A stretch of DNA of 64,000 nucleotides from a virus (taxonomy: Duplodnaviria > Heunggongvirae > Uroviricota > Caudoviricetes): IMG/VR virus record IMGVR_UViG_3300028734_000016. One strand, given 5' to 3'. Positions 1,991-63,820 of this stretch are shown in pieces (position 1 is the first letter of the stretch; each line of letters begins with the position of its first letter). Made by a program: the position numbers and the translations under genes. The notes under the pieces were generated by a model. The model was not told the origin of the DNA, made no database searches, and saw nothing but the letters and a program-made list of their open reading frames with translations.

Positions 1991-2422
1991 TTAAAAGGTA
2001 TCTGCTGTTATTAATGTAGTATCTGCTGTTATTAATGTAGTATCTACCGTTATTGATGCTCTAGACTTAGTTTCTACTATTATATTGGATATTTTCCAAT
2101 TTAAATTGTTTTTAATTTTAATTTTAATTTTAGCATCATCAATATATCTAAAATCTAACAAATATATGAAATATAGCAAAAATGATTGTATCAAATTCAT
2201 ATTGCTGCTATTATTCGATAAATATTCCAACAAATTTTGACTTTTACCATTTCCTCTTATTGGAATTGGAATTTTATTAAAATCTATAGGAAATTCTTTA
2301 ATAAAAGATAATTTGCTATTATCTAAAAATGTTATAATATTAGTGTGAGAACCAGTTTTAATTTTAAAATTTATCCAATTATTATTTATCCAAACCTTAG
2401 CTTGTTTTTCAACATTATTCAT
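1991..2422 (-). CDS. hypothetical protein (C-terminal TTLITADTTLITADTF duplication)
   Basis: 143-aa ORF co-oriented with neighbours. Confidence 0.45.
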   Translation of the reverse strand: MNNVEKQAKVWINNNWINFKIKTGSHTNIITFLDNSKLSFIKEFPIDFNKIPIPIRGNGKSQNLLEYLSNNSSNMNLIQSFLLYFIYLLDFRYIDDAKIKIKIKNNLNWKISNIIVETKSRASITVDTTLITADTTLITADTF

Positions 2423-2493
2423 ATTCTAAATTGTTTTTTATTATATATAAAAATAAATAAATAAAATATCAACACATCTTATTCAATAACAAT

Positions 2494-2712
2494 TTATGCT
2501 ATATTCAATGTTGTTGTTGTTGTATTTATTATATTTTCTCTATACTCATAACTACCATTTTCCATCATTAAAAAGTTTCCATTTTCTGATAGCATATGAT
2601 TTTCAGTTACATTTAATTCTAACTCTAATTTGCCAGATGTTTTTGAGAAATTGATATAATATTTACTAGTATTATTAGATTTAGATTTTAACACTATTTT
2701 ATTTTTAGCCAT
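2494..2712 (-). CDS. hypothetical small protein
   Basis: 72-aa ORF. Confidence 0.3.
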   Translation of the reverse strand: MAKNKIVLKSKSNNTSKYYINFSKTSGKLELELNVTENHMLSENGNFLMMENGSYEYRENIINTTTTTLNIA

Positions 2713-3209
2713 TATAAAACTTTGTATGATTTTTTATTATATATAATTTTTTATTACGATAAAATATTATTATTTATAAATTTTTTGTTTGACTCAATAA
2801 TATATAATATATAGATTATAAAAAATGTTTTATTTATGAAATGTAAAGTTATAAATTCAAATAAAAATACATTAGAAGAGAAAATAAATGATTGGTTGAG
2901 TACAGAAACAGTTGAAATATTTAATTTTGTACAAACTCAACATAACGAATATATAACTATTACATTTTTTTATTATGATAAATCTGAATTGAGAAAAATT
3001 AAATTGAAAAAATTAGAAAGCAATAAATAAATGGACATAAGAATCCAGTTAGAAAAAGACTTGATAGTCGAAGATGTTGTAGGTACACTTGTATCAGAAG
3101 ATGAATCGTCTAATATTATAGGTGAAATAATATATTATGATGAGATAACTGGTATATCTATCTGTGAATTATATAAAAAATAGAATCAATATTGATTCTA
3201 TTTTTTATT

Positions 3210-3404
3210 TTAATCTTTATCAACTTCTGAGTCAAATTCATGAGAATAATCTTTTTCTGGTTCTTCTTCTGGTTCTTTATCTTCAAGATTTTCTTTAATG
3301 ACATCAATTCCTGTGTCTGTTCTTTTTGTCTTATTTGCTTGCTGTGGGTTATAATTACCAGTGAAGTCAGTAAAACTTAATAAGTTTTCTAGTTTTGTTT
3401 TCAT
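3210..3404 (-). CDS. hypothetical small acidic protein
   Basis: 64-aa ORF, D/E-rich. Confidence 0.3.
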   Translation of the reverse strand: MKTKLENLLSFTDFTGNYNPQQANKTKRTDTGIDVIKENLEDKEPEEEPEKDYSHEFDSEVDKD

Positions 3405-3512
3405 TATTTTTAAATTGTTTTTTATTGTTTATATATAAAAAAAATATAATTTACTTTTTTTATAAATAATATCTCAATAATTTATATATAATATATAAAA
3501 TAATTTAAAATC

Positions 3513-3782
3513 TTGAAATATATAAAAAAATTTGAAAATAAAAAAGATGAACCAAAAGTAGGTGATTATGTAATTTTTGACTGTCCTATGTCATATGATG
3601 TAAAAATGAATAATCTATACAATTATACAGTTCATAAAATTATAAATATATATTGGGATTCATATGAAACAAATCTAGGACTTAATATAAATAAATCTTA
3701 TCTATTAGATTTTTCAGATAACAAAAGAAAATTACAACAATATGTTAAACTAAAAAAAAATACAGATAAATTTAATATATGA
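3513..3782 (+). CDS. member of MK-x-IKKFE ... KFNI small-protein family; apparent TTG start
   Basis: in-frame TAA directly upstream; N-terminus LKYIKKFEN matches paralogs MKHIKMFE/MKFIKKFE; ends KFNI with stop overlapping the next ATG (ATATGA). Confidence 0.55.
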   Translation: MKYIKKFENKKDEPKVGDYVIFDCPMSYDVKMNNLYNYTVHKIINIYWDSYETNLGLNINKSYLLDFSDNKRKLQQYVKLKKNTDKFNI

Positions 3783-4396
3783 AACACATAAAAATGTTTG
3801 AAACATTTACAAATAAAATTACAATAGGAATAGATATTGATGGTACGATATGTGATTTCGTTAATGCATACAATACACTATATAAAAGATACTTTCCTGA
3901 TAAAGAAATAAATCAGGATCAAAATTGGCATTGGTATGAAACAATGGACTATAATGGTGAATCATCAAAAACATGGTTTAATAATAAAAAATCTGAAGTT
4001 TTTGATATTGCTCAACCATATAAAGGTGCTGTTGATACTATAAACAATATATATGATTTTATAAAAACTCATGGTTTCAAATTAAACATAGTAACTAAAC
4101 AACCTACTGAAGAATCTAAAGAATCTGCTAAGAAATGGTTAGACCATTATGGATTTAAATACGATGACATCATTTTTGCTAATTCATCAATGGATAAATG
4201 GAAATATGCTGATATATTAATAGATGATTCTCAAAAAGTTATTGGAAGTAAACCATTAAGTAAAGTATCAATTAAAATTGAACACCCTCATAATACAGAA
4301 ATTGAAGGAGATTTTAATATTCTTGAAATTAATAATCTAACAATTGATATAATTCAGAAAGCTATATCTAAACTTAAAAATAAAACTACTGTATGA
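3779..4396 (+). CDS. HAD-superfamily hydrolase, 5'(3')-deoxyribonucleotidase-like
   Basis: N-terminal IGIDIDGTICDF (DxDGT motif I). Confidence 0.65.
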   Translation: MKHIKMFETFTNKITIGIDIDGTICDFVNAYNTLYKRYFPDKEINQDQNWHWYETMDYNGESSKTWFNNKKSEVFDIAQPYKGAVDTINNIYDFIKTHGFKLNIVTKQPTEESKESAKKWLDHYGFKYDDIIFANSSMDKWKYADILIDDSQKVIGSKPLSKVSIKIEHPHNTEIEGDFNILEINNLTIDIIQKAISKLKNKTTV

Positions 4397-4860
4397 AATT
4401 TATAAAAAAATTTGAAGATAGATATTCTGATATCTTTTTTAATAGTGATGATAGTGTATTTGAAGCTTGTAGAAGAGGAGATTTAGAAGTTGTACAAGAA
4501 TATATAGAAGTTGAAAAAGGTGATGTGAATAATATAGATAAATATGGATATACACTATTAATACTAGCAGCAGATAACAATAGGATAGATGTGGTGAAGT
4601 ATTTAATAGGAAAAGGAGCTGATATAAACTATCAAGATATCTATAATAGAACAGCATTAAATTATGCTACATTAAGAGAAAACAATGATATAGTAAGATT
4701 TTTAATAGAAGCTAATGCTAATTGGAACTTAAAAGATAATTTGGGTAATGATTTTTTGACGTATTTACTACCAATTAATAAGATTAATATAATTGAAGAA
4801 TATCCAGAACAATATCAAAAATATCTAACTATAAAAAAATCCGAAAAATTTAATTTATGA
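4393..4860 (+). CDS. ankyrin-repeat protein
   Basis: G-x-TLL-x-A repeats with DVVKYLIGKGADIN / TALNYA / IVRFLIEANAN motifs. Confidence 0.8.
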   Translation: MKFIKKFEDRYSDIFFNSDDSVFEACRRGDLEVVQEYIEVEKGDVNNIDKYGYTLLILAADNNRIDVVKYLIGKGADINYQDIYNRTALNYATLRENNDIVRFLIEANANWNLKDNLGNDFLTYLLPINKINIIEEYPEQYQKYLTIKKSEKFNL

Positions 4861-4888
4861 AAAAATATAATCAATTCATTAATGAAAA
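4849..4888 (+). repeat. conserved ~40-45-nt gene-junction repeat (AAATTTAAyATATGAAAAAATATAAyCAATTCATTAATGAA); copies also at ~5274, ~5634, ~6046
   Basis: four near-identical copies read directly in the sequence at consecutive gene boundaries. Confidence 0.8.
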
Positions 4889-5288
4889 TAGAGCATACGG
4901 TAAAGATAATAAAACCAATGATTTTAATTTTAATTTTTTTATATTATTAGAAAATGCGACAGAAGAAAACCAAAGTAAAGCATTTGAAGAATTTAATAAA
5001 TATGTAAATTTAGAATCACATAATATAAAAAATTTATTAATAACTAAATCAAATATTGATGATTTTAAAAATACAGAAATTGAATGGCTTTGGTATATTA
5101 ATGTATATGAGAGTTGGGGTAATGTACGAATACCAAGAGATACAATTGATTTCTTTAAAATGAGATCTACTGATCTTCGTAGTAGTGATAATTTAATTAT
5201 TTCATTAGATGAATTTATTAAAATTGGATTGAAAGGAGTTGAAACTCTTTATAAAGTAAAAAAAGATGCAAATAAATTTAATATATGA
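4857..5288 (+). CDS. MKKYNQFINE...KFNI paralog 1
   Basis: identical 10-aa N-terminus and KFNI tail; ATATGA stop/start overlap. Confidence 0.7.
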   Translation: MKKYNQFINENRAYGKDNKTNDFNFNFFILLENATEENQSKAFEEFNKYVNLESHNIKNLLITKSNIDDFKNTEIEWLWYINVYESWGNVRIPRDTIDFFKMRSTDLRSSDNLIISLDEFIKIGLKGVETLYKVKKDANKFNI

Positions 5289-5650
5289 AAAAATATAACC
5301 AATTCATTAATGAAAAAAATTCTGATGTATTTAAAGTTTCAATAGATATTAAAAATATCACAGATGACGATTTATATAAGCTCAATGAAATATTCAAAAA
5401 ATATTTTGACATTTATGATATTATAAGTCAATATGCGTCATATAGTAATAAACCTCATACATTGGTTTTAGATATAAGTAACAATAAAATAACTACTTGG
5501 TGTATTACAACACCTGATTGGGGTTATGATGAAGATTATATTATAAATATTATTAAACCTGAAGAATTGTTAAATGCTAGATCAAATGGAATTAAAGATA
5601 TTGTAGAATATCTTGAAGCAAGAAATAATACAAATAAATTTAATATATGA
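5285..5650 (+). CDS. MKKYNQFINE...KFNI paralog 2
   Basis: as above. Confidence 0.7.
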   Translation: MKKYNQFINEKNSDVFKVSIDIKNITDDDLYKLNEIFKKYFDIYDIISQYASYSNKPHTLVLDISNNKITTWCITTPDWGYDEDYIINIIKPEELLNARSNGIKDIVEYLEARNNTNKFNI

Positions 5651-6063
5651 AAAAATATAATCAATTCATTAATGAATCAAAAGATATATGGCAAAGAGAA
5701 TCAACAAAAGATGAAACATATGGTCCTATTTTTTACATAAAAAGACCAGGATTTAAGACTGGAGTGTATGATGGAGATATAGTTAAATTAGATAAAGAAT
5801 ATATTGAAAAATTAGACTCTGTATTATATAATAGACATAATGAAAAAAAGACGACTGACAAATTTACTGATAATGATTATAGTAAAGAATATGTTCTAGT
5901 TGATTATGTATGGTATTATGGGTATGTATTAAGAAATTCACTATCTGATATAGAAGATAATGATTTCTTAGGATGGGTACCAACAGGATATGTTAGACAC
6001 CTAACAGACGAAGAAATGAAAGATTATCAATATAAAATACATGCAAAAAAATTTAACATATGA
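5647..6063 (+). CDS. MKKYNQFINE...KFNI paralog 3
   Basis: as above. Confidence 0.7.
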   Translation: MKKYNQFINESKDIWQRESTKDETYGPIFYIKRPGFKTGVYDGDIVKLDKEYIEKLDSVLYNRHNEKKTTDKFTDNDYSKEYVLVDYVWYYGYVLRNSLSDIEDNDFLGWVPTGYVRHLTDEEMKDYQYKIHAKKFNI

Positions 6064-6434
6064 AAAAATATAATCAATTCATTAATGAAAGTTCTAAAAC
6101 TAAATTCAGGTTTGCAATAAATATTAAAGGCATAACAGATGAACAAACAGATCAAGTTATTGATAAACTCAAAAAATATAATCTAAGTCAAAGTGATGAA
6201 CACACTATAAGAAATGATGTAAAAATACAAGGTTTTTATTCAATAATTGTTGATGTGTCAAATTATCCAAATAATACACATATATTTATAATTGCTGTTT
6301 CCACACGAGGATGGGGTAATAATATTGATTATATGCAAAATATGCTATCAATAGATAATTTTTTAGTTATACCATTTGATGATATATATGATAATATTCA
6401 ATATAGAATATACGCAAAAAAATTTAACATATGA
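6060..6434 (+). CDS. MKKYNQFINE...KFNI paralog 4
   Basis: as above. Confidence 0.7.
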   Translation: MKKYNQFINESSKTKFRFAINIKGITDEQTDQVIDKLKKYNLSQSDEHTIRNDVKIQGFYSIIVDVSNYPNNTHIFIIAVSTRGWGNNIDYMQNMLSIDNFLVIPFDDIYDNIQYRIYAKKFNI

Positions 6435-6976
6435 TACATATTAAAAAATTCGAATTCTACGATACCAAAGAATTTACACGTGATTCAGAACCAGAAATAA
6501 ATGATTACGTTAGACTTGATGAAGATTTCTATGAATCTAAAATACCTGAATATTTTATACCTAGAGAAAATGACACAGACTATAAATATAGAATAGGTAA
6601 AATAATTGGATATAATGAACATACAGAACACTATAACGTTAAATTTGATAAATATGAATTGTGGAATAATAATTTTTTAGTTAAACGTGAACAAATAAAA
6701 AGCTATTCTAAAAAAATTGAAGATCTGGAAAATCTGCCATCTGTTGGAGATTATTGTCTGCTTGGTTGGGATAATACGGAATTGTGTAAAGTAATAAAGA
6801 AAGAAAGAGTTGAAAATTTTAGATGGGCTTCAATTGATTATAAGGTTAAAAAAATGAATCCTGGTCCTCACGATGGCACAGGAATTGTTCAAACTGATGA
6901 TGATTCAATGAAATATTGGTCAAGCGATATAAATGATATGAAATCAATTATAGCATCAAAGAAATTTAATGTGTAG
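6431..6976 (+). CDS. hypothetical protein (MIHIKKFE...KKFNV); TAG stop overlaps tRNA 3' end
   Basis: 181-aa ORF, family-type termini. Confidence 0.6.
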   Translation: MIHIKKFEFYDTKEFTRDSEPEINDYVRLDEDFYESKIPEYFIPRENDTDYKYRIGKIIGYNEHTEHYNVKFDKYELWNNNFLVKREQIKSYSKKIEDLENLPSVGDYCLLGWDNTELCKVIKKERVENFRWASIDYKVKKMNPGPHDGTGIVQTDDDSMKYWSSDINDMKSIIASKKFNV

Positions 6977-7046
6977 CTTGAGAGGGATTCGAACCCTCAC
7001 TGAAACGCATTTGAAACGCCGTCCTCTGCCGTTGGGATACCAAGCC
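6975..7046 (-). tRNA. tRNA, anticodon loop UUCAAAU (CAA, leucine-type), short variable loop, A73
   Basis: hand fold: 7-bp acceptor (G1·U72), perfect T-arm GAGGG-TTCGAAT-CCCTC, anticodon stem rich in G·U; identity uncertain. Confidence 0.5.
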
Positions 7047-7047
7047 A

Positions 7048-8145
7048 TTATTTTAACCACTTCTTAACTGCTTTACCAGTTACTCCATAAACTCTACCAA
7101 CAGCTTCTAAACTTGTATCAGATATCATTAATCTTAACTCATCTTTTGTTGGTCTGTTCTTTACTTTTCTTTCAGATAATCTGTAGCAGTCATAACATTG
7201 TTTAGAATTGTGTTTAATTTCTTTTCCACATGCACAATAATTTTTTATTAAATTATTGTTTATTTTAATTTCTTTTTTACCTGATTTTAATTTTTTTATT
7301 CTATCATTTCTAATTATATTATAATAATATTCATCAACTTCACTTTTGATATTTAAATTTTTAACACCAAGAAACTCATACATTTTTTTGAAATCTACTC
7401 TTCTATTTACGTTTATTCTATAACAGTTATCTTTACTTATTTGTATAGTATAATGAATATTTATAATATCAAGTGAGTTACAATAAATATCTACTATATC
7501 TTTAGACATATTAGAAAAATTATAATAATAACCGAAATATTTTTTTCCTTCTTTTTTAATTATTGTATTTTTATATAAGCAACCATCTGAATGAAACAAT
7601 CCACGTATTATGTTTTTGTGATTTATATTTTTTATTTGAAAATCTTCTAGTATTATTTTTCTTTTGTGCTTTACTCCTTTTCCTATTTGAGGAAATAAAT
7701 ATTTTAAAGAGTTGGAATATACTGAAACAATAAACATATTATATTTAGTTTTATGAATATTTATTTTATTAAATGGAAATAATATTTTTAAATTATTTTC
7801 ACATTCAGTTACTATATTATAATACTTACTATCTAAAAATATTCGAATTTGATATGATGATCTTTTTGTTTTTATTATATGACCATCTCCTAAATATAAT
7901 CCTAATATATAATTATATTCTAATTTTTTATCAGATAAATAATTATTAATATCACAATTATTTTTTAATTTTTTTTGATTTTCTAATTTATTATATTGAT
8001 TGAATTTTTCATTGTTATTTAACCAATATCTAATATTACTTCTTGGTATATTATATTTTTTACTTAATTCTGACTGTTTTGATCCATTATTATATTCTTC
8101 TATTATTTTTATGATTTCACTAACTTCATATACTCTATATGTCAT
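7048..8145 (-). CDS. LAGLIDADG homing endonuclease (two LAGLIDADG motifs) with N- and C-terminal HTH-like regions
   Basis: YILGLYLGDGHI and IIRGLFHSDGCL motifs; tracked ORF extends to 8295 but that extension translates the tRNA gene, so the ATG at 8145 (MTYRVYEV) is preferred. Confidence 0.85.
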   Translation of the reverse strand: MTYRVYEVSEIIKIIEEYNNGSKQSELSKKYNIPRSNIRYWLNNNEKFNQYNKLENQKKLKNNCDINNYLSDKKLEYNYILGLYLGDGHIIKTKRSSYQIRIFLDSKYYNIVTECENNLKILFPFNKINIHKTKYNMFIVSVYSNSLKYLFPQIGKGVKHKRKIILEDFQIKNINHKNIIRGLFHSDGCLYKNTIIKKEGKKYFGYYYNFSNMSKDIVDIYCNSLDIINIHYTIQISKDNCYRINVNRRVDFKKMYEFLGVKNLNIKSEVDEYYYNIIRNDRIKKLKSGKKEIKINNNLIKNYCACGKEIKHNSKQCYDCYRLSERKVKNRPTKDELRLMISDTSLEAVGRVYGVTGKAVKKWLK

Positions 8146-8249
8146 ATTATTTTTTATTTTATATATAAAAAATTCTATGACAAAAAGAATAAAAATTGAA
8201 CATATTTTTAAATAAATTGTATCATAATGATTAATCATTGAATATATTG

Positions 8250-8337
8250 TACTCCTGGTCGGACTTGAACCGACACGCCTACTATTGTTCAGCACATGTT
8301 TCTAAAACATGGATGTCTACCATTCCATCACAGGAGC
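8250..8337 (-). tRNA. tRNA-Leu (anticodon TAG), type II with long variable arm, A73
   Basis: hand fold: acceptor GCTCCTG/CAGGAGT, D-loop GGAATGGTAGAC, anticodon stem CATGT/ACATG loop TTTAGAA, T-arm GTCGG-TTCAAGT-CCGAC. Confidence 0.85.
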
Positions 8338-8346
8338 GATTTTTTG

Positions 8347-8433
8347 TACCGATGACGGGACTTGAACCCGTATAAGCATATAGCTTGCAAAATTTTAAGT
8401 TTTGAATGTCTACCAAGATTCCATCACATCGGC
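8347..8433 (-). tRNA. tRNA-Leu (anticodon TAA), type II, A73
   Basis: anticodon stem CAAAA/TTTTG loop CTTAAAA; ~16-nt variable arm; T-arm ACGGG-TTCAAGT-CCCGT. Confidence 0.85.
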
Positions 8434-8441
8434 ATATTTTG

Positions 8442-8521
8442 TACTCCTAGAGGTATTCGAAACCTCATCCAAATGGACATCATCTTAAGTGATGCGTGTA
8501 TACCAATTCCACCATAGGAGC
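8442..8521 (-). tRNA. tRNA, anticodon TAA (leucine-type) with only ~11-nt variable region, A73
   Basis: acceptor GCTCCTA/TAGGAGT, Leu-like D-loop GGAATTGGTATAC, anticodon stem CATCA/TGATG loop CTTAAGA, T-arm GAGGT-TTCGAAT-ACCTC. Confidence 0.6.
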
Positions 8522-14635: not shown

Positions 14636-15391
14636 TTATTTTACTTGTTTAAATACATATTTCATATAATATTCATCAAAACCATCCATCATAGTTGTAA
14701 TTGAATTGGATTTATTATCAGCTAATCCAATGACATTATCTATCAAACCATAATTCAAAGCTTCATCAGAATTTAACCACATATCTCTTTGACAAAAATC
14801 ATGAATTTCTTCAAATGACTTGTCAGTATTAAGAGCAAGAATTTTGAATAGTAAAAAATTGTATTTTTCAGTTTCCATTTGACTAATACGAGTATCATCT
14901 ACTTTGCCACTAGTTCCTGCTGCAACGTGATGTAGCATAACTGTTGAATTAATTAATGATGAACGCTTACCTTTTGCTCCAGATGATAGAAGTACACTAC
15001 CCATTGAAGCGCACATTCCTAAATTGACTGTGGCTACATTAGGTTTAATATAGTTCATAACATCTATGATTCCTAACCCATGAGTCACACTACCGCCTCC
15101 TGTATTAATTTGCATTGTAATGTCCTTTTGAGGATCAGAATCTTCTAAATATAATAATTGTGCTTGAATAATATCAGACATTGTATCATCAACGTCACCA
15201 GACACCCATAAAATTCTATCCATCATAAGTCTATCAAACACAGATAGTTGAGTTACATTCAATTGTCGTTCTTCTAAAACATGAGGAGATAAGCCATAAT
15301 TTTCAGCTTGATATTTTGTTGCATCATCTACTAATGTAGAACTCATTCCTAAATGTTTGGTAGCAAACTTTTTAAATTCATTTTTGTGCAT
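14636..15391 (-). CDS. clpP: ATP-dependent Clp protease proteolytic subunit ClpP
   Basis: GMCASMGS (Ser), MLHHVAAG (His), ILWVSGDVDD; full-length canonical ClpP. Confidence 0.9.
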   Translation of the reverse strand: MHKNEFKKFATKHLGMSSTLVDDATKYQAENYGLSPHVLEERQLNVTQLSVFDRLMMDRILWVSGDVDDTMSDIIQAQLLYLEDSDPQKDITMQINTGGGSVTHGLGIIDVMNYIKPNVATVNLGMCASMGSVLLSSGAKGKRSSLINSTVMLHHVAAGTSGKVDDTRISQMETEKYNFLLFKILALNTDKSFEEIHDFCQRDMWLNSDEALNYGLIDNVIGLADNKSNSITTMMDGFDEYYMKYVFKQVK

Positions 15392-20320: not shown

Positions 20321-21121
20321 TTATATTTTAACTTTTACCTGTTCTGTGTTCCTATTAATTGCATTAGATATGCTATAAAATTCAGGAAAGTCTAATGATT
20401 TTTCCATACTAACAAATGAATCTATCGTGCCAGGAGAAATATCTTTAACGTAATTTGAAAATTTATTAGTAGCATCCTGTATAGCTAATTGTCTTGTTTT
20501 CATTGTAGGTGTAAAATAAAACTCATCTTTAAATGCTTGAGACATTAATCCAATAAAATAACAGCAATCTAAATAATTTTCTATTTGATCAGTTGATTCA
20601 AATTTAAATAATTGATTATATTTTTGAATATTTGTCAACATTATATTTTTATCATCAGAATCTAGTACATTATCAATTATATATCTAACTGAAGAACGAA
20701 TTGTAGTTGGTTCATGTCCTCTTGTTGTAATAATCGCAAATAATCTTCCTTCTTTTAAAGTTGATAGTAATGATTTCCATGATGGTCCGAAGTCTTTATT
20801 TTTTATTGCTTTTTTGATATCATCAAGTAGTGAATTATCTCCTCTTGCTCCGCTGTCTACAAATTCTGAAAAAGTATATTTAGTATCAGCTTTCCATTCA
20901 TTATTATCTATATAATTATCTGGATATTTTTCACGTATTTTAGAAAAATCTTGTATTGATATGTCTTTATTTATCCATTTGTCATTTTCAAAATGTTGAA
21001 AGTGTAAAGGAGTATTCATGATAAGCAAATTATCATCAATATCAAATATAGAATATTGTGAATTACCTACACTTTGTTGCTCTAAAATAAATGAATTCCA
21101 ATCTTTGACTATTTTGCTCAT
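20321..21121 (-). CDS. hypothetical protein
   Basis: 266-aa ORF. Confidence 0.55.
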   Translation of the reverse strand: MSKIVKDWNSFILEQQSVGNSQYSIFDIDDNLLIMNTPLHFQHFENDKWINKDISIQDFSKIREKYPDNYIDNNEWKADTKYTFSEFVDSGARGDNSLLDDIKKAIKNKDFGPSWKSLLSTLKEGRLFAIITTRGHEPTTIRSSVRYIIDNVLDSDDKNIMLTNIQKYNQLFKFESTDQIENYLDCCYFIGLMSQAFKDEFYFTPTMKTRQLAIQDATNKFSNYVKDISPGTIDSFVSMEKSLDFPEFYSISNAINRNTEQVKVKI

Positions 21122-21447
21122 TATAAATTAAATTTTTTTGTAGATTTATACAATTCTGTATCTTTCATATATTCAACTATATCATTATATTCTTCGTCTG
21201 TTATAGATATTGTACCTTTTTGATAATTTTTCAAGGCAAAAGATATTTTATAACCGCCTGGTTTAAGTGAACTTTTATATATGCTGTCTGATTTTATAAT
21301 AAAATCAGGTGAATTTTGAAATCCGTGATTTTTTCTAAATTCATCATTTGTATTTACATAATCATCAACAACTCTCATCATATTATCATAATATCGATCT
21401 AATTGAATTTTCTTTGAATAATATTCGCCAAAACTATATACTGTCAT
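21121..21447 (-). CDS. hypothetical protein (ends ...KKFNL)
   Basis: 108-aa ORF. Confidence 0.5.
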   Translation of the reverse strand: MTVYSFGEYYSKKIQLDRYYDNMMRVVDDYVNTNDEFRKNHGFQNSPDFIIKSDSIYKSSLKPGGYKISFALKNYQKGTISITDEEYNDIVEYMKDTELYKSTKKFNL

Positions 21448-22846: not shown

Positions 22847-23209
22847 TTATTTATTTTTTATATCAATTATTGTATTAAATAATTTGTTAAATTTAGATTT
22901 CAAATCATTTAAATCTTTTTCGTATTCATTCATTTCATCTATAACAGCATCTATATCGCAGAAGAAATATTTATTGTTGTGTTCTATTTTTGAGTTTTTG
23001 AACTCTGTTTTATTTAATGGAAAACATAATCCAGTACCTTCAAAATCTTTATCATTTGCTAATCTTTCAACATAATAACCAATTGCTACTGCATATCCTA
23101 TATTATCAAAACCTATACATTTTGTTTTAATAAAACTATTTATATTATCATTATAATATTCTAAAATATATATTGGCTCTCCTACCAATAAATCTGTCCA
23201 TTTTTTCAT
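22847..23209 (-). CDS. hypothetical protein
   Basis: 120-aa ORF. Confidence 0.5.
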   Translation of the reverse strand: MKKWTDLLVGEPIYILEYYNDNINSFIKTKCIGFDNIGYAVAIGYYVERLANDKDFEGTGLCFPLNKTEFKNSKIEHNNKYFFCDIDAVIDEMNEYEKDLNDLKSKFNKLFNTIIDIKNK

Positions 23210-23220
23210 AATTTATAAAA

Positions 23221-23463
23221 TTAAAATTCATCATAACACCAAATTGGTGTGTGTTCTCCCATATAAGCACCAGCGGTATTGAATTCAAAGAATTCTAATG
23301 CTTCTTCTTCTGTCATACCATCAGTAATAAATATTTCTATACATTTTGATACTGAGTAAATTAATCTCATTGAATTCATTTCTAAACCAATTACTGCATC
23401 ATCCAAACCATCAGCAGATAATATTCCTTCATCTGGATAATTGTTTATAATTTCTTCTAACAT
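23221..23463 (-). CDS. hypothetical small protein
   Basis: 80-aa ORF. Confidence 0.45.
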   Translation of the reverse strand: MLEEIINNYPDEGILSADGLDDAVIGLEMNSMRLIYSVSKCIEIFITDGMTEEEALEFFEFNTAGAYMGEHTPIWCYDEF

Positions 23464-23478
23464 TTTTTACTATTATTT

Positions 23479-23913
23479 TCATATTATCAATTTACCATTG
23501 ATATGATCAAATTGATGTTGAACAGCTATTGAGTTCAAATCTTTTAATGTCAACAATTTATAATTCCAATTTATATCATAATATTTAATCATAACAATTG
23601 ACCTTCTATTAATAGGAAATTCCAAATTAGGTAAACTTAGACATCTCTCCTTATTTTGAATAAAAAGTCCATCAAGATATATTTCTGGATTAATAAATAC
23701 TTCCTTTAAATCAGGATTATCAATTATAAATAAATTTAAATTGTGTCCAACTTGAGGAGCAGACAATCCAAATTCAAATTTGTGATAATTAAGAGTTTCA
23801 AACATGTTTTTGATTAAGGAAAGTAGAAATGGATTCTCCTTTTTTACGTTCACGTTTATTTTTCTTAATTTTCCTGAGTTTAAATCATCATATTTAATTA
23901 TATCTAAAATCAT
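23479..23913 (-). CDS. def: peptide deformylase homolog with HQxDH in place of HExDH
   Basis: motif 1 GLSAPQVG, motif 2 ERCLS (metal Cys present), motif 3 QHQFDH; codon 23512-23514 is CAA (Gln) where the catalytic Glu is expected. Confidence 0.8.
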   Translation of the reverse strand: MILDIIKYDDLNSGKLRKINVNVKKENPFLLSLIKNMFETLNYHKFEFGLSAPQVGHNLNLFIIDNPDLKEVFINPEIYLDGLFIQNKERCLSLPNLEFPINRRSIVMIKYYDINWNYKLLTLKDLNSIAVQHQFDHINGKLII

Positions 23914-24131
23914 TTACCGTGCTTCTTTTCTTTCTTCTTTTCTTTAATTTCAGATTTCTCAATCGTCTTTTCTTCTAATTTCTCAGATGTTTCTGATTTG
24001 AAAAAATCCTTATATTCTTTTTTTGAACAATATTTCCATCCTTGTTCAATGTAAGATTTTATTGATACAACATCATTTATACTAGCATCAGGTAATTTCT
24101 TAAAGGTGTCTTTTTTTCTTAAAATTTTCAT
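23910..24131 (-). CDS. hypothetical small lysine-rich protein
   Basis: 73-aa ORF. Confidence 0.4.
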   Translation of the reverse strand: MKILRKKDTFKKLPDASINDVVSIKSYIEQGWKYCSKKEYKDFFKSETSEKLEEKTIEKSEIKEKKKEKKHGK

Positions 24132-24159
24132 ATCCTATTTTATTTTTATTATTTATATG

Positions 24160-24676: not shown

Positions 24677-24696
24677 TCAAACCTAATTTTTTAAGG

Positions 24697-26109: not shown

Positions 26110-26127
26110 AATATTATAATTTATTTG

Positions 26128-26448: not shown

Positions 26449-26450
26449 AT

Positions 26451-27128: not shown

Positions 27129-27132
27129 AATA

Positions 27133-27786: not shown

Positions 27787-27792
27787 ACTTAT

Positions 27793-29785: not shown

Positions 29786-30907
29786 ATGAAATATTTAAAA
29801 ACTTTTGAAAAAATGATGTCAAATTTTACGTTATATCATGGCTCACCATACTTATTTTCTGAGTTTAAAAATAAAATTACATTTTTTTCAGATAATTCTC
29901 AATTTGCGTATGATTATGCTAGTGAGAAATCTAGTGATAATGAATTAGATCAATCACCAGTCATATATACATGCAAATTAAATGGTAAGATATTTGATGC
30001 TAACATAGATGAACATTTAAAAAAATTAGATGATATATTACCAGATAAAATAACATGCTATATGAGTAATTTTTGCTTTCCTGCTGATTATACAAAACAG
30101 GATATTTTAAAATTATTGAAAGGTGATGATACAATTGAGCCAATTGATTATATATCAAATGCTAAAGTTGGAGATATAGTAGATGACCCATATTATAAAA
30201 TTGATAAATTAATTGTAGTTGATGTTGATTCTGAAAATGTTTATACTATTGACAAAAAGAATTTTAATTATCATTTAAGTGGAGCTGACTCAATAAGATA
30301 TGGTGATAATCATTTTGGATATGAATATCGTAAATACTTTGATGATTTTAGAAATTATATTAAAGAAATTTTTAAAGGAAAGGAAATTTATGGAATATCG
30401 GATCATTTGACTGGTATATTTCTGGACAAAAAATATCACAAAACATATTTAAAATTTGAAATTCCTGATGAACAGTATATAAAAGGAGTTGAATTATATG
30501 ATATAGCAAAAGAAAATATGATGAAAGATTATGCGTCTAAACTCAAAAAATCATGGAACAAAAAACCAAAAAAAATAAAATTGGATGACACATGGAGATA
30601 TTATGAAAATGATTCTGTTTCTAGCGCAATTGAAAAATTAGGATTTGCTGGTTATGTTGCAAAAGAAAAAAAGCATAATACATATGCCATATTCAATCCA
30701 AAAGAAACTATTACAATCGAATCAATTTATTATGAAGTTGGTGAGTTTAAAAACTTAGAAGAAATAGGAGATTACAACAAAATGATAAACAAACTTTATA
30801 AGCATTATGATTCATCATTTGGTTATGAGAGATATAATGTATATAAATATATGAAAAAAGGATTTACATTAGAAGAAATAATATCTGAAATTGATAATAA
30901 AAAATAA
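29786..30907 (+). CDS. hypothetical protein (MKYLKTFEKM... start type)
   Basis: 373-aa ORF. Confidence 0.6.
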   Translation: MKYLKTFEKMMSNFTLYHGSPYLFSEFKNKITFFSDNSQFAYDYASEKSSDNELDQSPVIYTCKLNGKIFDANIDEHLKKLDDILPDKITCYMSNFCFPADYTKQDILKLLKGDDTIEPIDYISNAKVGDIVDDPYYKIDKLIVVDVDSENVYTIDKKNFNYHLSGADSIRYGDNHFGYEYRKYFDDFRNYIKEIFKGKEIYGISDHLTGIFLDKKYHKTYLKFEIPDEQYIKGVELYDIAKENMMKDYASKLKKSWNKKPKKIKLDDTWRYYENDSVSSAIEKLGFAGYVAKEKKHNTYAIFNPKETITIESIYYEVGEFKNLEEIGDYNKMINKLYKHYDSSFGYERYNVYKYMKKGFTLEEIISEIDNKK

Positions 30908-38224: not shown

Positions 38225-38695
38225 ATGAAAAATATTAAAACATTTGAAAACTGGAAAGATAATATAATAGATGATAAATTATTTACTAGCGGTAAAGCTA
38301 AATATGATCCAACTGTATTTGGTGGAATTATTAAATATAAGTCAGGAAACGTTGAACCATATTATTTTGCTAGAATACAGAAAAAAGGAGGAATTTTTAT
38401 TTGTAAAATTTTCAAGAAAAATAAAGATGGTGAAAGTATAAGATTGAGAAATAAAAAGAAAGATGATTTGAAATCTGCTCATAATTATGTTAGAGAATTT
38501 ATAAATCAAAGGTTGAAAAGAGATGAAGAAAAAGTAGAAACAAATGACACTTTTTTTGAACCTAAAAAAAGACATCATAATATAGACAATGACAAATTAT
38601 TCACTGATGATTATAGTGATGATAAGCCTATTGATCCTTATATACAACCAATAATAGAGCCACAAAAAAGAAAAACTATCATTAGAAGATTTTAA
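38225..38695 (+). CDS. hypothetical basic protein (MKNIKTFENW start type)
   Basis: 156-aa ORF. Confidence 0.55.
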   Translation: MKNIKTFENWKDNIIDDKLFTSGKAKYDPTVFGGIIKYKSGNVEPYYFARIQKKGGIFICKIFKKNKDGESIRLRNKKKDDLKSAHNYVREFINQRLKRDEEKVETNDTFFEPKKRHHNIDNDKLFTDDYSDDKPIDPYIQPIIEPQKRKTIIRRF

Positions 38696-61635: not shown

Positions 61636-62055
61636 ATGATAACAGAATTCAAATTATTCGAGAACTCAGATGATAAAGTCACATTGGTATTGGATGATAT
61701 TGTAGATTACTTTGATAGTCATGAAGATTCAATACGAAATTTCATTTTCAAATTATTTAATTTCAACAATAACATTGTTGAATTTAATTGTAATAAATGT
61801 ACAGATGATATAAATGGTGTTACAAATTTTATACATTCAAATAAACATCATAAAGGAATTATAAACGGTAGAAGTTATGGATTTAATTATGATCTTAAAC
61901 ATATATACTTAACATTGAGATTGAAAAGAATAAAATTTAGTCATATAGTAGACACAAATTCTCAGATGACAATTTATGGAAATATTCCTGGTGATATAAA
62001 AAAAATAATAAATGATATTAATATAAAAAGACAAGCAAATAAATTTAACATATGA
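61636..62055 (+). CDS. MIxEFKLFEN...CNKC...NKFNI family protein
   Basis: paralog of 62470-62907. Confidence 0.6.
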   Translation: MITEFKLFENSDDKVTLVLDDIVDYFDSHEDSIRNFIFKLFNFNNNIVEFNCNKCTDDINGVTNFIHSNKHHKGIINGRSYGFNYDLKHIYLTLRLKRIKFSHIVDTNSQMTIYGNIPGDIKKIINDINIKRQANKFNI

Positions 62056-62468: not shown

Positions 62469-62469
62469 T

Positions 62470-62907
62470 ATGATTATAAATTTCAAAATATTTGAAAATA
62501 CAGAAACCGAAACAACATTCATACTAAATGATTTGTTAAATTACTATTCTGGTAGTTACACGAAAATTAAAAAATTTCTTAGTAATTTGTTGATAGTTGA
62601 TACATTAGTTGAATTTAATTGTAAGAATTGTTATGATAAAGAAAAAAATATTTTTATAGATGTACCTCAAATAGTTAAAGGTAGAATCAACACCATAACA
62701 GAGTGTACGACTGGATATCAAGGCACTTTACAACACAAGAAAAGAATATTTGTTCTATTATCATTAATATTAACTACAAATGATAATTATATTTACCATG
62801 TTGACAATAAATCATCATTTACTATTTATGGTAATATTACAGAAAAACAGAAAAAAGTAATCAATGAAATGAATTTAACAAGAATCTCAAATAAATTCAA
62901 CTTATAA
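62470..62907 (+). CDS. MIINFKIFEN...CKNC...NKFNL family protein
   Basis: paralog of 61636-62055. Confidence 0.6.
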   Translation: MIINFKIFENTETETTFILNDLLNYYSGSYTKIKKFLSNLLIVDTLVEFNCKNCYDKEKNIFIDVPQIVKGRINTITECTTGYQGTLQHKKRIFVLLSLILTTNDNYIYHVDNKSSFTIYGNITEKQKKVINEMNLTRISNKFNL

Positions 62908-62952
62908 TAATATAAAAGATGATAATTATTAGTAAAGGTTATATTTTTTTTG

Positions 62953-62960: not shown

Positions 62961-62989
62961 CGAAATATAATTATAAATAAAAATAATAT

Positions 62990-63421
62990 ATGAACTCAAA
63001 AATAAATTCCTCTATAAAAATTAGTTCTGATACTGAAAAATTTCTAAATAATTATGAAGAAATATATAAAAAGAAATATGAAGAAAATATAACTGATAGT
63101 TTCACATATAGAGGTATACCATATTCTTGTTATGATGAATTCGCACTATTAATATTTATGTATAAATATCCATATATTTGGAAAACAGATAATAAAAAAA
63201 CAAATAAAAAAATACAAAGAGAAGTAAAAAAATATACATTAGATTCTGTGATAACGAAAATAGAAGAAACACCAAAATTATATTATGAAATAGAAGAATA
63301 TACAAATAAAACATCACTGGTTTGGAAAAGTTCATATTTCATTTTTTCATACTATTTATTTTTAAATGCTGTAAATTATACTCCATCATGGATAATATCA
63401 ACAAGAAAATTTAATATATAA
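62990..63421 (+). CDS. hypothetical protein (...RKFNI tail)
   Basis: 143-aa ORF. Confidence 0.5.
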   Translation: MNSKINSSIKISSDTEKFLNNYEEIYKKKYEENITDSFTYRGIPYSCYDEFALLIFMYKYPYIWKTDNKKTNKKIQREVKKYTLDSVITKIEETPKLYYEIEEYTNKTSLVWKSSYFIFSYYLFLNAVNYTPSWIISTRKFNI

Positions 63422-63530
63422 TTATGATAATTGAAAAATTTAATATATTTAAAAGAAAAAAGAAAATATATAATTATGATAATTGAAAAATTTAATATAT
63501 TTAAAAGAAAAAAAGAAAAAGAAAAATATT
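63421..63530 (+). repeat. tandem direct duplication (~52 nt x2) of a gene start AATTATGATAATTGAAAAATTTAATATATTTAAAAGAAAAAAG
   Basis: two copies read directly; first copy gives a 20-codon truncated ORF. Confidence 0.8.
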
Positions 63531-63820
63531 TCTTAGTTTTATTCAAACCAGATGAAGGAGATTATTTTATATTATATAAAATAATTCTTGGAATTGAAGA
63601 ATTTGTTCTTACTGACAAAATTGATTCAAGTAATATAGATATCCTTAAAAAGAAAAATACCAACATTGAAAGTTTTACTACAATTGAATTAGCCAACGAT
63701 AGATTAGATATTGTAATACACAAATACAATGATCACCAATGGGCTAATAGAAATAATTGGATGATAAAAACTTTTGATGAGTTGAATTTTTTATTCACTA
63801 CAAATAAATTTAATATATAA
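63476..63820 (+). CDS. MIIEKFNIFK...NKFNI family protein (start placed at the ATG of the second repeat copy)
   Basis: tracked ORF 63431-63820 begins at a non-ATG codon inside the duplicated leader. Confidence 0.55.
   Translation: MIIEKFNIFKRKKEKEKYFLVLFKPDEGDYFILYKIILGIEEFVLTDKIDSSNIDILKKKNTNIESFTTIELANDRLDIVIHKYNDHQWANRNNWMIKTFDELNFLFTTNKFNI

What the first reader, a model, noticed from the sequence alone, without database searches (positions are those of the whole stretch)
3513..6976. Tandem array of hypervariable small genes with a conserved ~45-nt junction and overlapping stop/start (ATATGA)
Four consecutive genes start with the identical decapeptide MKKYNQFINE and end ...KFNI*. The DNA AAATTTAAyATATGAAAAAATATAAyCAATTCATTAATGAA recurs at every boundary (~4849, 5274, 5634, 6046) while the ~100-aa cores have diverged almost beyond recognition. 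Flanking genes (3513, 3779, 4393, 6431) share a related MK-x-IKKFE start and KFN[ILV] end. A second cluster at 61636-63820 has the same termini. Conserved ends with variable cores suggest either cassette-like diversification by recombination at the junction, or a DNA-level signal embedded in the coding ends.
Basis: seen in the sequence. Interest (0 to 1): 0.7.

Follow-up and report, generated by a model that had tools for sequence, protein, structure and literature searches.

The report
Capsid-addressed cargo gene cassettes, huge phage
A roughly 711-kb bacteriophage carries rows of small, unrelated genes that all begin with a copy of the ten-residue tag phage T4 uses to load proteins into its head, and that end with a second, undescribed four-residue tag; the DNA coding for these tags also serves as the crossover point at which related phages gain and lose the genes.

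Summary
Four overlapping genes (4857-6434) start MKKYNQFINE and end KFNI, and a 41-nt junction recurs four times (0 expected by chance).

The cores are not one hypervariable gene. Three are 21-36% identical paralogues and the fourth is unrelated. Neighbours carrying the same ends are an ankyrin protein and a 5'-nucleotidase, plus an LRR protein in a relative.

The window comes from a ~711-kb Mahaphage-type huge phage. The leader matches the phage T4 internal-protein capsid targeting sequence (MKTYQEFIAE) at the positions T4 genetics showed to matter: 4 and 7 for targeting, 8 and 10 for cleavage. A profile built from 39 metagenomic leaders scores T4 IPII and IPIII at 16.5 bits, against a maximum of 4.3 bits for 8,785 internal T4 decamers.

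Relatives encode a T4 gp21-type protease fused to a scaffold made of repeats (..YSEYIAEN..) that resemble the leader.

The termini are constrained at the amino-acid level (dN/dS 0.19 versus 0.48 in cores) but not at synonymous sites. Strain comparisons place cassette gain and loss breakpoints inside the junction.

Best reading: head-packaged, injected cargo proteins that are shuffled at their tag-coding junctions. The C-terminal K[FY]N[ILVM] tag is unexplained and appears new. Packaging is inferred, not shown.

The parts
3513..3782 (+). Cassette 1. 89 aa with a TTG start. Leader MKYIKKFEN (type c) and C-terminal tag DKFNI. Core contains a VGDYV motif.
3779..4396 (+). Cassette 2. NT5C-type 5'-nucleotidase with leader MKHIKMFET and no C-terminal tag.
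   Evidence: Pfam PF06941, E = 3.4e-12
4393..4860 (+). Cassette 3. Ankyrin-repeat protein with leader MKFIKKFED and C-terminal tag EKFNL.
   Evidence: Pfam Ank_2/Ank_4, E about 1e-19
4857..5288 (+). Cassette 4 (FRF-a). Leader MKKYNQFINE (type a, matches the T4 capsid targeting sequence) and C-terminal tag NKFNI.
5285..5650 (+). Cassette 5 (FRF-b). Paralogue of cassettes 4 and 7. Absent from strain L024/L012, with the breakpoints inside the junction repeats.
5647..6063 (+). Cassette 6 ('DIWQR' protein). Its fold is unrelated to FRF, but it has the same leader and C-terminal tag. Absent from strain L014/L015/L029.
6060..6434 (+). Cassette 7 (FRF-c). In the AlphaFold2 model, residues 1-11 are disordered, the core has pLDDT about 90, and a C-terminal helix is followed by FNI as coil. 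Weak match to the PHROG family 'internal head protein'.
6431..6976 (+). Cassette 8. 181 aa with two VGDY-type half-domains, leader MIHIKKFE and C-terminal tag KKFNV. The stop codon is TAG and no gene overlaps downstream.
4846..4886 (+). Junction repeat, copy 1. It encodes the C-terminal tag, the overlapping stop/start ATGA, and the leader.
5274..5314 (+). Junction repeat, copy 2. Left breakpoint of the cassette-5 indel relative to L024.
5636..5676 (+). Junction repeat, copy 3. Right breakpoint of the cassette-5 indel.
6049..6089 (+). Junction repeat, copy 4. Boundary of the cassette differences relative to L014 and L024.
6973..8521 (-). tRNA-Leu cluster abutting the array (6973-7046, 8249-8337, 8346-8433, 8441-8521). 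It is split by a LAGLIDADG homing-endonuclease ORF at 7048-8295.
21121..21447 (-). Solitary gene ending TKKFNL. Its stop overlaps the next gene's start as TAATG. No canonical leader.
29786..30907 (+). 373-aa protein with leader MKYLKTFEK and no C-terminal tag.
38225..38695 (+). 156-aa protein with leader MKNIKTFEN and no C-terminal tag.
61636..62055 (+). Cluster 2, gene 1. Leader MITEFKLFEN (type b, contains L-F-E) and C-terminal tag NKFNI.
62470..62907 (+). Cluster 2. Paralogue of 61636-62055. Leader MIINFKIFEN and C-terminal tag NKFNL, encoded with the synonymous codons TTC and AAC.
62990..63421 (+). Cluster 2. C-terminal tag RKFNI, no leader.
63431..63820 (+). Cluster 2. C-terminal tag NKFNI. 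The likely start is at 63476 (MIIEKFNIF).

Best explanation
The window belongs to a ~711-kb Mahaphage-type huge phage. The array and its sister clusters encode cargo proteins, meaning internal or ejection proteins that are loaded into the prohead and probably injected with the DNA.

Proposed mechanism (inferred unless marked otherwise):
1. The N-terminal decapeptide is a T4-type capsid targeting sequence. An aromatic or hydrophobic residue at position 4 and F/Y at position 7 would dock the protein onto the scaffold core. The leader looks like one unit of the scaffold's own 14-residue repeat.
2. The [ILV]-x-E at positions 8-10 would be cut by the gp21-type prohead protease, releasing the mature protein inside the head.
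3. The tag is portable, so unrelated domains (ankyrin, LRR, nucleotidase, several novel small folds) have been recruited to it.
4. The genes are translationally coupled through ATGA overlaps. The last five codons of one gene plus the first ten of the next therefore form a ~45-nt direct repeat.
5. The phage's homologous recombination uses that repeat to delete, insert, reorder and homogenise cassettes.

Shown here: the sequence match to the T4 tag; amino-acid-level constraint on the termini; breakpoints at the junctions; a gp21-type protease-scaffold fusion in relatives.

Inferred only: physical packaging, cleavage and injection.

The C-terminal K[FY]N[ILVM]-COOH tag is a second, conserved protein-level signal whose reader is unknown.
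For: Origin of the window:
- The exact protein is found on a 711,471-bp contig.
- The best complete relatives are the 735-, 642-, 636- and 634-kb 'uncultured phage' genomes. These are Mahaphage-clade genomes with predicted Bacteroidetes hosts (PMC7162821).

The leader matches the T4 capsid targeting sequence:
- T4 IPII and IPIII start MKTYQEFIAE, and IPI starts MKTFKEF.
- T4 mutagenesis maps targeting to residues 4 and 7, and processing to residues 8 and 10 (PMC9026906).
- In 39 leaders from FRF-family representatives that are less than 50% identical to each other: M1 38/39, K2 39/39, Y/F4 39/39, F/Y7 39/39, I/L/V8 38/39, E10 38/39. Positions 3 and 5 vary.
- A profile built from those leaders scores T4 IPII/IPIII at 16.5 bits and IPI at -0.6 bits. 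The 45 other T4 N-termini tested score -4.7 or lower, and the maximum over 8,785 internal T4 decamers is 4.3 bits.
- Gene 6060-6434 hits PHROG 2667, 'internal head protein', at E = 5.8e-5.
- AlphaFold2 leaves residues 1-11 disordered on an otherwise confident core.

The tags sit on unrelated domains. Within the single FRF family, three leader types are interchangeable (39 type a, 13 type c, 3 type b), and 58 of 62 members end K[YF]N[LI].

The termini are protein-level signals:
- Termini: dS 0.59, dN/dS 0.19.
- Cores: dS 0.44, dN/dS 0.48.

T4-type head machinery in the clade:
- LR756501 has portal (E = 9e-27 to T4 gp20), a gp21-like protease (E = 7.6e-4; homologues carry Pfam PF03420) and a gp23-like capsid protein, in T4 order.
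- The protease is fused to a scaffold with 12-14 repeats of I-[KD]-Y-S-E-Y-I-A-E-N-L, which resemble the leader K-K-Y-N-Q-F-I-N-E-N.
- Contig L049 carries two doubly tagged genes immediately upstream of the portal and this protease.

Recombination at the junction.

Locus analogy: T4 ipI lies near a tRNA cluster that contains the segB homing endonuclease. Here the array abuts a tRNA-Leu cluster split by a LAGLIDADG ORF.
Against: - No virion proteomics exists, so packaging, cleavage and injection are all inferred.
- The window phage's own protease was not recovered: no 711,471-bp contig appears among the 120 hits listed of 4,206.
- Type-c leaders (MK.IKKFE) have K, not I/L/V, at the P3 position, so their cleavage is doubtful.
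- The proteins are mostly acidic to neutral (pI 4.8-9.2), unlike the basic T4 IPII and IPIII.
- About 13% of window ORFs and about 5% of LR756501 ORFs carry a leader. That is a lot of cargo, and it includes a nucleotidase.
- The PHROG hit is weak and is seen for only one of the four genes that share the identical decapeptide.
- The C-terminal tag has no counterpart in T4, and this model does not explain it.
Confidence: 0.6

Rival explanations
1. The terminal tags are degradation or remodelling signals read by the phage's own ClpA/C-type unfoldase and ClpP. On this view they time the removal of these proteins rather than address them to the capsid.
For: - The window encodes a genuine ClpP (14636-15391; Pfam E = 1.7e-54; NCBIfam ClpP hits) and an 842-aa ClpA/B-family ATPase (50154-52682) containing an I-G-F loop in '...[10 protein letters not shown]...', the tripeptide that docks such unfoldases on ClpP.
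- From my own memory (a lead, not a test): one class of ClpX C-terminal signals, as in MuA '...RRKKAI', consists of basic residues followed by a hydrophobic C-terminus. This loosely resembles KKFNI.
- This rival could be true for the C-terminal tag alone and still be compatible with the main model for the leader.
Against: - It does not explain the specific match of the leader to the T4 capsid targeting sequence or to the scaffold repeat.
- LR756501 keeps the leaders but not the KFNI tag.
Confidence: 0.12
2. The conserved ends are nucleic-acid signals that happen to lie in coding sequence: a translation re-initiation or coupling element, or a dedicated recombination site. The amino-acid conservation would then be a by-product.
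For: - Seven of the eight array genes overlap the next gene by ATGA and lack any Shine-Dalgarno sequence, as expected for a Bacteroidetes-type host.
- The junction is unstructured (z-scores 0.4, -0.1, 0.8 and 1.15).
- Within the window the 41 nt are nearly identical.
- Breakpoints fall in the junction.
Against: - Synonymous divergence at the termini is not reduced between orthologues, whereas nonsynonymous divergence is.
- Across 62 distant homologues the amino-acid pattern is kept while positions 3 and 5 vary freely.
- The C-terminal tag is kept with TAA or TAG stops and without a downstream overlapping gene.
- The leader occurs on genes that follow intergenic spacers (29786, 38225, 61636).
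- Recombination at the junction is real, but it is better seen as a consequence of the repeats than as their reason for existing.
Confidence: 0.1
3. This is ordinary tandem duplication with fast divergence. The ends look conserved only because the AT-rich coding bias favours Lys, Asn, Ile, Phe and Tyr.
For: - The genome is 23% G+C.
- Three of the four MKKYNQFINE genes are true paralogues.
Against: - Unrelated folds carry the same ends.
- 12 of 106 ORFs end in the tag, against an expectation of about 3e-4 per ORF from my own rough composition estimate.
- No shuffle reproduced the junction.
- The leader profile picks out the T4 internal proteins in a genome that is not AT-extreme.
Confidence: 0.03

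Closest known systems
Phage T4 and T-even internal proteins (IPI, IPII, IPIII and more than 30 variants) with their capsid targeting sequence (CTS). Sources: Mullaney & Black 1996 and Repoila et al. 1994, as cited in PMC9026906, PMC3012670, PMC12373910 and PMC2839356.
   Same: - A ten-residue N-terminal leader with the same critical positions (M1, K2, aromatic 4, F7, I/L8, E10), ending in a gp21-type [IL]-x-E site.
- It is attached to otherwise unrelated small proteins.
- The genes sit in hyperplastic loci whose content differs between close relatives.
- The locus lies next to a tRNA cluster that contains a homing endonuclease.
- A gp21/gp22/gp23-type head module is present in the clade.
   Different: - The host phage is a ~0.7-Mb Mahaphage-type genome, not a 170-kb Tevenvirinae phage.
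- There are dozens of tagged genes in several clusters rather than about three.
- Cargo includes ankyrin, LRR and nucleotidase domains, and the proteins are mostly acidic rather than basic.
- Three leader variants exist.
- An additional C-terminal K[FY]N[ILVM] tag is absent from T4.
- The genes are fused by ATGA overlaps, with no intergenic promoter or stem-loop elements.
PeSL-mediated modular shuffling in T4-type phages (Arbiol et al. 2010, PMC2839356; PMC4122927)
   Same: Short conserved repeats (under 100 bp) flanking non-essential ORFs act as crossover sites. The results are whole-ORF insertions, deletions and replacements between close relatives, each leaving a single chimeric repeat.
   Different: PeSLs are intergenic promoter plus stem-loop cassettes. 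Here the repeat is itself coding sequence (end of one tag, stop/start, start of the next tag), has no hairpin, and the array looks like a single translationally coupled operon.
Ejection-protein paralogue families of giant phages phiKZ, 201phi2-1 and SPN3US (PMC5694885)
   Same: - These giant myoviruses have a gp21-type protease that cleaves after Glu.
- They carry many head-internal proteins.
- The paralogues gp53 and gp54 share an identical 15-residue N-terminus even though the rest of the proteins has diverged.
   Different: - Their propeptides are mostly over 100 residues long.
- Their cleavage motif is A/S/G-x-E.
- No shared C-terminal tag is described, nor junction-mediated cassette exchange.
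Encapsulin cargo-loading peptides (from my own knowledge)
   Same: A short terminal peptide suffices to address unrelated proteins to the interior of an HK97-fold shell. It is offered only as a functional analogy for the C-terminal tag.
   Different: The sequences are different and there is no evidence of homology. Nothing here shows that the C-terminal tag binds the capsid.

Membership tests
T4-type internal (capsid-targeted) proteins | N-terminal capsid targeting sequence of about 10 residues, with determinants at positions 4 and 7 | tested here: met
   - A profile from 39 independent leaders scores T4 IPII/IPIII at 16.5 bits, against a maximum of 4.3 bits for 8,785 internal T4 decamers.
- Y/F4 and F/Y7 are each present in 39 of 39 leaders.
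T4-type internal (capsid-targeted) proteins | A gp21 cleavage site [LI]-x-E at the end of the leader | tested here: met
   - Type-a leaders: I/L/V at position 8 in 38/39 and E at position 10 in 38/39.
- Type-b leaders contain [IL]-F-E at positions 7-9.
- 7 of 12 tagged window genes have such a site within the first 12 residues, against 15 of 92 other genes (p = 0.003).
- Type-c leaders (K-F-E) do not fit the consensus. This is sequence-level evidence only.
T4-type internal (capsid-targeted) proteins | The phage encodes a gp21-family prohead protease and a scaffold core | tested here: inconclusive
   - Present in the closest complete relative LR756501 and in relatives L055 and L057.
- Present on contig L049 next to doubly tagged genes.
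- Not recovered for the window genome itself, because only 64 kb of about 711 kb could be read.
T4-type internal (capsid-targeted) proteins | Physically present in the mature head, N-terminally processed, and injected with the DNA | not testable with these tools
   This requires virion mass spectrometry or reporter-fusion experiments. The phage is uncultured.
T4-type internal (capsid-targeted) proteins | Encoded in hyperplastic loci whose gene content varies among close relatives | tested here: met
   Three strain types differ by whole cassettes, and a fourth has a shuffled order plus an LRR cassette.
T4-type internal (capsid-targeted) proteins | Small basic DNA-associated proteins (as for IPII and IPIII) | tested here: not met
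   The pI is 4.8-6.1 for six of the eight array proteins. This property is not universal even in T4, so I treat it as a difference rather than an exclusion.
PeSL regulatory cassettes | An intergenic early promoter plus a stem-loop terminator between ORFs | tested here: not met
   The genes overlap by ATGA with no intergenic DNA. The junction does not fold better than shuffled sequence. Promoter-like sites are not enriched (57 found versus 66.7 expected).
PeSL regulatory cassettes | Recombination between flanking repeats generates ORF indels that leave one chimeric repeat | tested here: met
   The L024 junction is a hybrid of window junctions 5274 and 5636, and gene 5285-5650 is absent.

The most novel reading that the evidence does not exclude
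Huge Mahaphage-type phages may run a two-ended protein address system.
- A T4-like N-terminal leader, which mimics one unit of the scaffold's own tandem repeat, works together with a lineage-specific second peptide.
- That second peptide is K[FY]N[ILVM]-COOH in this lineage and DPYGEE.W in the 735-kb phage LR756501.
- Together they would mark 5-13% of all genes as head cargo, letting these phages inject dozens of effectors (ankyrin, LRR, nucleotidase and novel folds).
- Because the two tags abut across ATGA overlaps, the address-coding DNA would also be the recombination module that lets effector cassettes be swapped between genomes. This amounts to a built-in exchange system for injected effectors.
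Probability: 0.3. Interest if true: 0.75.

Novelty: new variant of a known kind. Interest (0 to 1): 0.62.

Why it matters
It is not known what the hundreds of unannotated genes in huge phages do.

- A recognisable address tag would give a sequence-only way to list the proteins these uncultured 0.6-0.75-Mb phages probably load into their heads and inject. That list would be a catalogue of candidate host-takeover and anti-defence effectors.
- The match would extend the T4 capsid targeting sequence, already used as an engineering tool, across a very deep branch of T4-like head assembly.
- The resemblance between leader and scaffold repeat suggests how the tag works: by co-assembling with the scaffold and being cut by the same protease.
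- The C-terminal tag, and the DPYGEE.W peptide in the 735-kb phage, appear to be undescribed short motifs with no known reader.
- The coding-junction crossover is a compact example of how selection for a protein tag creates the homology that drives cassette exchange.

Tried and rejected
- **Giant eukaryotic virus origin.** Suggested by 23% G+C, ankyrin and collagen genes and tRNA-Leu genes. Rejected because of the ATGA-coupled operons, the T4 gp9/10 domain, and best hits to huge phage genomes.
- **Alternative genetic code (TGA as a sense codon).** Rejected: long ORFs are intact under table 11, and Trp is encoded by TGG.
- **Programmed -1 frameshift at AAATTTAAT.** Rejected by inspection: the sequence does not fit the X XXY YYZ slippery pattern.
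- **RNA element at the junction.** Rfam found only tRNAs, and there is no stable fold.
- **Similar sequences in cultured or deposited phages.** blastn and tblastn of the array and of single cassettes against 50,697 phage records gave no match.
- **AlphaFold2 of the ankyrin cassette from a single sequence.** Mean pLDDT was 55, so the model is uninformative.
- **Finding the window phage's own prohead protease.** Two protein searches failed: none of the hits listed (all 91; the best 120 of 4,206) came from a 711,471-bp contig.
- **Pfam and PHROG scans of the cassette cores.** Only NT5C, the ankyrin repeats and one weak 'internal head protein' hit were found.
- **C-terminal protease site.** No consistent [ILV]-x-E lies near the C-termini by inspection, so the C-terminal tag is probably not removed by the prohead protease.
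- **Literature.** No paper in the held library links capsid targeting sequences to huge phages, and none mentions DPYGEE in phages.

Full report
**1. Observation**

The region holds eight consecutive + strand genes between 3513 and 6976. Seven of the eight overlap the next gene by ATGA. Four of them (4857-5288, 5285-5650, 5647-6063, 6060-6434) begin MKKYNQFINE and end KFNI.

The 41-nt junction AAATTTAAYATATGAAAAAATATAAYCAATTCATTAATGAA matches at 4846, 5274, 5636 and 6049 with at most one mismatch. No match occurred in 100 dinucleotide-preserving shuffles. The shorter pattern AAATTYAAYNTNTGA occurs 7 times against 0.39 expected.

In the whole window, 12 of about 106 non-overlapping ORFs end [KR]FN[ILV]. 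Fourteen ORFs match a regular expression for the leader, of the general form M-x(1-4)-[FYIL]-[KNEDQ]-x-[FY]-[EKI]. The two features co-occur (Fisher p = 1.2e-7).

- The nucleotidase gene 3779-4396 has no C-terminal tag.
- 62990-63421 has no leader.
- 62052-62468 has neither tag.
- A further cluster lies just upstream of the window (L001 311-4054).

**2. What the genome is**

G+C content is 20-30% throughout. The window encodes:
- a protein with a T4 gp9/gp10 N-terminal domain;
- an NAD-dependent ligase;
- a fused Mre11/Rad50-like protein;
- ClpP and a ClpA/B-family ATPase;
- Sir2, thymidine kinase, an S1-like protein and collagen-repeat proteins;
- four tRNA-Leu genes.

The exact protein of 6060-6434 is found on 12 contigs, the longest being 711,471 bp. 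The conserved 628-aa ORF 45240-47126 matches only the 'uncultured phage' genomes of 735, 642, 636, 634 and 462 kb, with 43% identity to the 735-kb LR756501. Al-Shayeb et al. place these largest genomes in the Mahaphage clade with predicted Bacteroidetes hosts (PMC7162821). A Bacteroidetes host would fit the absence of Shine-Dalgarno sequences at the junctions; this is an inference.

**3. The cores**

The cores are not one hypervariable gene.
- 4857, 5285 and 6060 are paralogues (21-36% identity, alignment A1). I call this the 'FRF' family.
- 5647-6063 is unrelated: hhalign against the FRF profile aligns only its last 14 residues.
- 4393-4860 is an ankyrin-repeat protein, and 3779-4396 is an NT5C nucleotidase.
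- 3513 and 6431 share a VGDY-type module.
- In the relative L007 an LRR protein (2410-3036) sits in the array.

Unrelated domains therefore carry the same termini.

**4. The leader matches the T4 capsid targeting sequence**

T4 IPII and IPIII begin MKTYQEFIAE, and IPI begins MKTFKEF.... The first ten residues of IPIII suffice to load foreign proteins into the T4 head. Mutagenesis assigns targeting mainly to residues 4 and 7, and processing by the gp21 protease to residues 8 and 10 (PMC9026906; PMC3012670). [quoted passage not shown]

A profile search of 1.84 billion representative proteins with the FRF alignment returned 66 proteins. Of 62 full-length ones, each less than 50% identical to the others:
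- 39 carry a type-a leader, with M1 38/39, K2 39/39, Y/F4 39/39, F/Y7 39/39, I/L/V8 38/39, N9 35/39 and E10 38/39. Positions 3 and 5 vary.
- 13 carry type c (MK[HY][IL]K.[FY]E).
- 3 carry type b (MI..F.[IL]FE).
- 58 of 62 end K[YF]N[LI].

Identity anchored at the termini is 0.43 for the first 10 residues (all leader types mixed) and 0.66 for the last 5, against 0.25 for the aligned cores.

A position-specific matrix built from these 39 leaders, with a T4-composition background, gave the following scores:

| Sequence | Score (bits) |
|---|---|
| T4 IPII and IPIII N-termini | 16.5 |
| T4 IPI N-terminus (third) | -0.6 |
| The other 45 T4 N-termini tested | -4.7 or lower |
| Best of 8,785 internal T4 decamers | 4.3 |

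Gene 6060-6434 also hits PHROG 2667, 'internal head protein', at E = 5.8e-5. That hit is weak and is seen for only one of the four genes.

**5. Head machinery in the clade**

Local tblastn with T4 head proteins against 60% of LR756501 found a T4-ordered module in L036:
- portal, 22969-24795 (gp20, E = 9e-27);
- an 807-aa protease-scaffold fusion, 24913-27336 (gp21, E = 7.6e-4);
- major capsid protein, 27340-29166 (gp23, E = 3.7e-5).

Homologues of the protease domain carry Pfam PF03420 (Peptidase_S77, the gp21 family). They align with T4 gp21, sharing the invariant G-E-x-x-H-P and S-S-R-x-x-G segments and an N-terminal L-I-x-E site.

The scaffold part consists of 12-14 tandem 14-residue repeats with consensus I-[KD]-Y-S-E-Y-I-A-E-N-L. 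That gives a dozen [ILV]-x-E sites. The repeat resembles the leader K-K-Y-N-Q-F-I-N-E-N at K, Y, Q/E, F/Y, I, E and N.

Contig L049 comes from a sample that also holds relatives of the window phage. It carries two genes with both a leader and the KYN[LI] tag (1545-1877 and 1874-2209) directly upstream of the portal and this protease.

I could not recover the protease of the window genome itself. LR756501 uses the same leaders on about 30 of 548 ORFs read, but not the KFNI tag. Ten of its larger leader-bearing proteins hit no housekeeping Pfam family. In the window, none of the recognisable enzymes except NT5C carries a leader.

**6. Protein-level or DNA-level constraint**

I computed Nei-Gojobori estimates on eight orthologue pairs of doubly tagged genes, comparing the window with L012, L014 and L007:

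| Region | dS | dN | dN/dS |
|---|---|---|---|
| Termini (first 10 + last 5 codons) | 0.59 | 0.11 | 0.19 |
| Cores | 0.44 | 0.215 | 0.48 |

- Synonymous sites in the termini are as free as elsewhere, while amino acids are more constrained.
- The C-terminal tag uses both AAT and AAC, and both TTT and TTC.
- It occurs with TGA, TAA and TAG stops, with or without a downstream overlap.
- The junction RNA is no more structured than shuffled sequence.

This argues against an embedded nucleic-acid signal. Whole-gene dN/dS for the cassettes is 0.33-0.56, against 0.04-0.20 for NT5C. That indicates relaxed or fast evolution, not overt positive selection.

**7. Recombination at the junction**

blastn of the window against relatives shows the following:
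- **Strain L024/L012.** It is collinear from 2626 to 5314, then jumps to 5631-6037. Gene 5285-5650 is missing exactly. The single L024 junction matches window junction 5274 on its left and junction 5636 on its right. This strain also lacks 6060-8244.
- **Strain L014/L015/L029.** It lacks 5647-6063 and has other cassettes instead, again with boundaries at junctions.
- **Strain L007/L009.** The order is rearranged and an LRR cassette is present.

Orthologous leaders differ between strains. FRF-a carries MKKYNQFINE, MKSFDQYINE or MKKYKEFINE. The DIWQR gene carries MKKYNQFINE, MKKYDQFINE or MKKYIEFLNE. Within the window all four leaders are identical, with one difference in 30 nt. That pattern indicates gene conversion.

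T4-type recombination needs less than 50 bp of homology and is known to shuffle ORFs between flanking PeSL repeats (PMC2839356). Here the repeat is the tag-coding junction itself.

Array orthologues are 81-93% identical in DNA, no more diverged than their neighbours (64-84%).

**8. What remains open**

The C-terminal tag, with extended consensus ...[ND]-[AIT]-[KN]-K-[YF]-N-[LI]-COOH, is strongly conserved but has no T4 counterpart and no identified reader. Three possibilities, none testable here:
- a second capsid or ejection signal, by functional analogy with encapsulin cargo peptides (my own knowledge);
- a degron for the phage-encoded ClpA/C-ClpP, since the ATPase has an IGF loop;
- a structural cap on the C-terminal helix.

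Type-c leaders lack a canonical P3 residue. The proteins are mostly acidic. The fraction of tagged genes is high.

**9. Verdict**

- The cassette-recombination reading is supported, and the DNA-signal reading is not.
- The best explanation is a set of T4-type capsid-addressed cargo genes in a huge phage, shuffled at their tag-coding junctions (confidence about 0.6).
- This is a new variant of a known kind, with an apparently new C-terminal tag.

Noticed in passing
LR756501 (loci L033, L035-L042): The peptide DP[YF]GEE, mostly followed by x-W, occurs about 55 times in roughly 430 kb of the 735-kb phage. In 13 cases it lies exactly 10 residues before the stop. Other copies sit directly after the MIKKFK.FE-type leader or between domains. 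It is absent from the window and its close relatives. No phage literature hit was found.
   Followed up: partly
window 6973-8521 (-); L024 737-1189; L014 6984-7437; L007 5465-5996: Every relative has a tandem cluster made only of tRNA-Leu genes (5-6 copies, anticodons taa, tag, caa, aag) next to the array. In the window the cluster is split by a LAGLIDADG plus HTH ORF (7048-8295). Strain L024/L012 lacks that ORF and has an uninterrupted tRNA-Leu cluster. This resembles segB inside the T4 tRNA cluster.
   Followed up: partly
window 14636-15391 (-) and 50154-52682 (-): The phage encodes a full-length ClpP (Pfam E = 1.7e-54) and an 842-aa ClpA/B-family ATPase with a Clp_N domain and an I-G-F loop. 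Together these would make a complete phage-borne Clp protease.
   Followed up: partly
L036 24913-27336; L057 6001-8340; L055 6004-8385: In Mahaphage-type relatives the gp21-like prohead protease is fused to a scaffold containing 12-14 tandem 14-residue repeats (..KYSEYIAENLD..). More than 4,200 relatives of this fusion exist in the metagenomic protein collection.
   Followed up: partly
window 60443-61621 (+): A GIY-YIG endonuclease ORF sits immediately upstream of the second tagged cluster. By eye it has four N-terminal repeats of about 50 residues (W..EKCQE.ALKY..R.DF.K...AY).
   Followed up: no
window 40005-41162 (-): A phage-encoded protein resembling ribosomal protein S1 (NCBIfam rpsA models at E about 1e-33, below their cut-offs). 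This may be relevant to translation without Shine-Dalgarno sequences at the AU-rich junctions.
   Followed up: no
L014 4628-5929: In strain L014 several cassettes look degraded: a 71-aa truncated ORF that keeps the leader, an FRF-c orthologue with an altered C-terminus, and the VGDY double gene split into two ORFs. This could be real cassette decay or assembly error.
   Followed up: no
L019 and L025 (IMG/VR sample 3300000553): A more distant Mahaphage-like phage (clamp loader 37% identical to that of LR756501) also has small genes ending KKYNL and many N-termini of the form MK..F.EF[IL]NE. The tag system is therefore wider than the window's immediate lineage.
   Followed up: partly
window 5997-6094 and 6398-6451: The DIWQR protein and FRF-c, otherwise unrelated, share 64% identity over their last 14 residues (KDYQYKIHAKKFNI versus DNIQYRIYAKKFNI). 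This suggests that conversion tracts extend beyond the minimal tag.
   Followed up: partly
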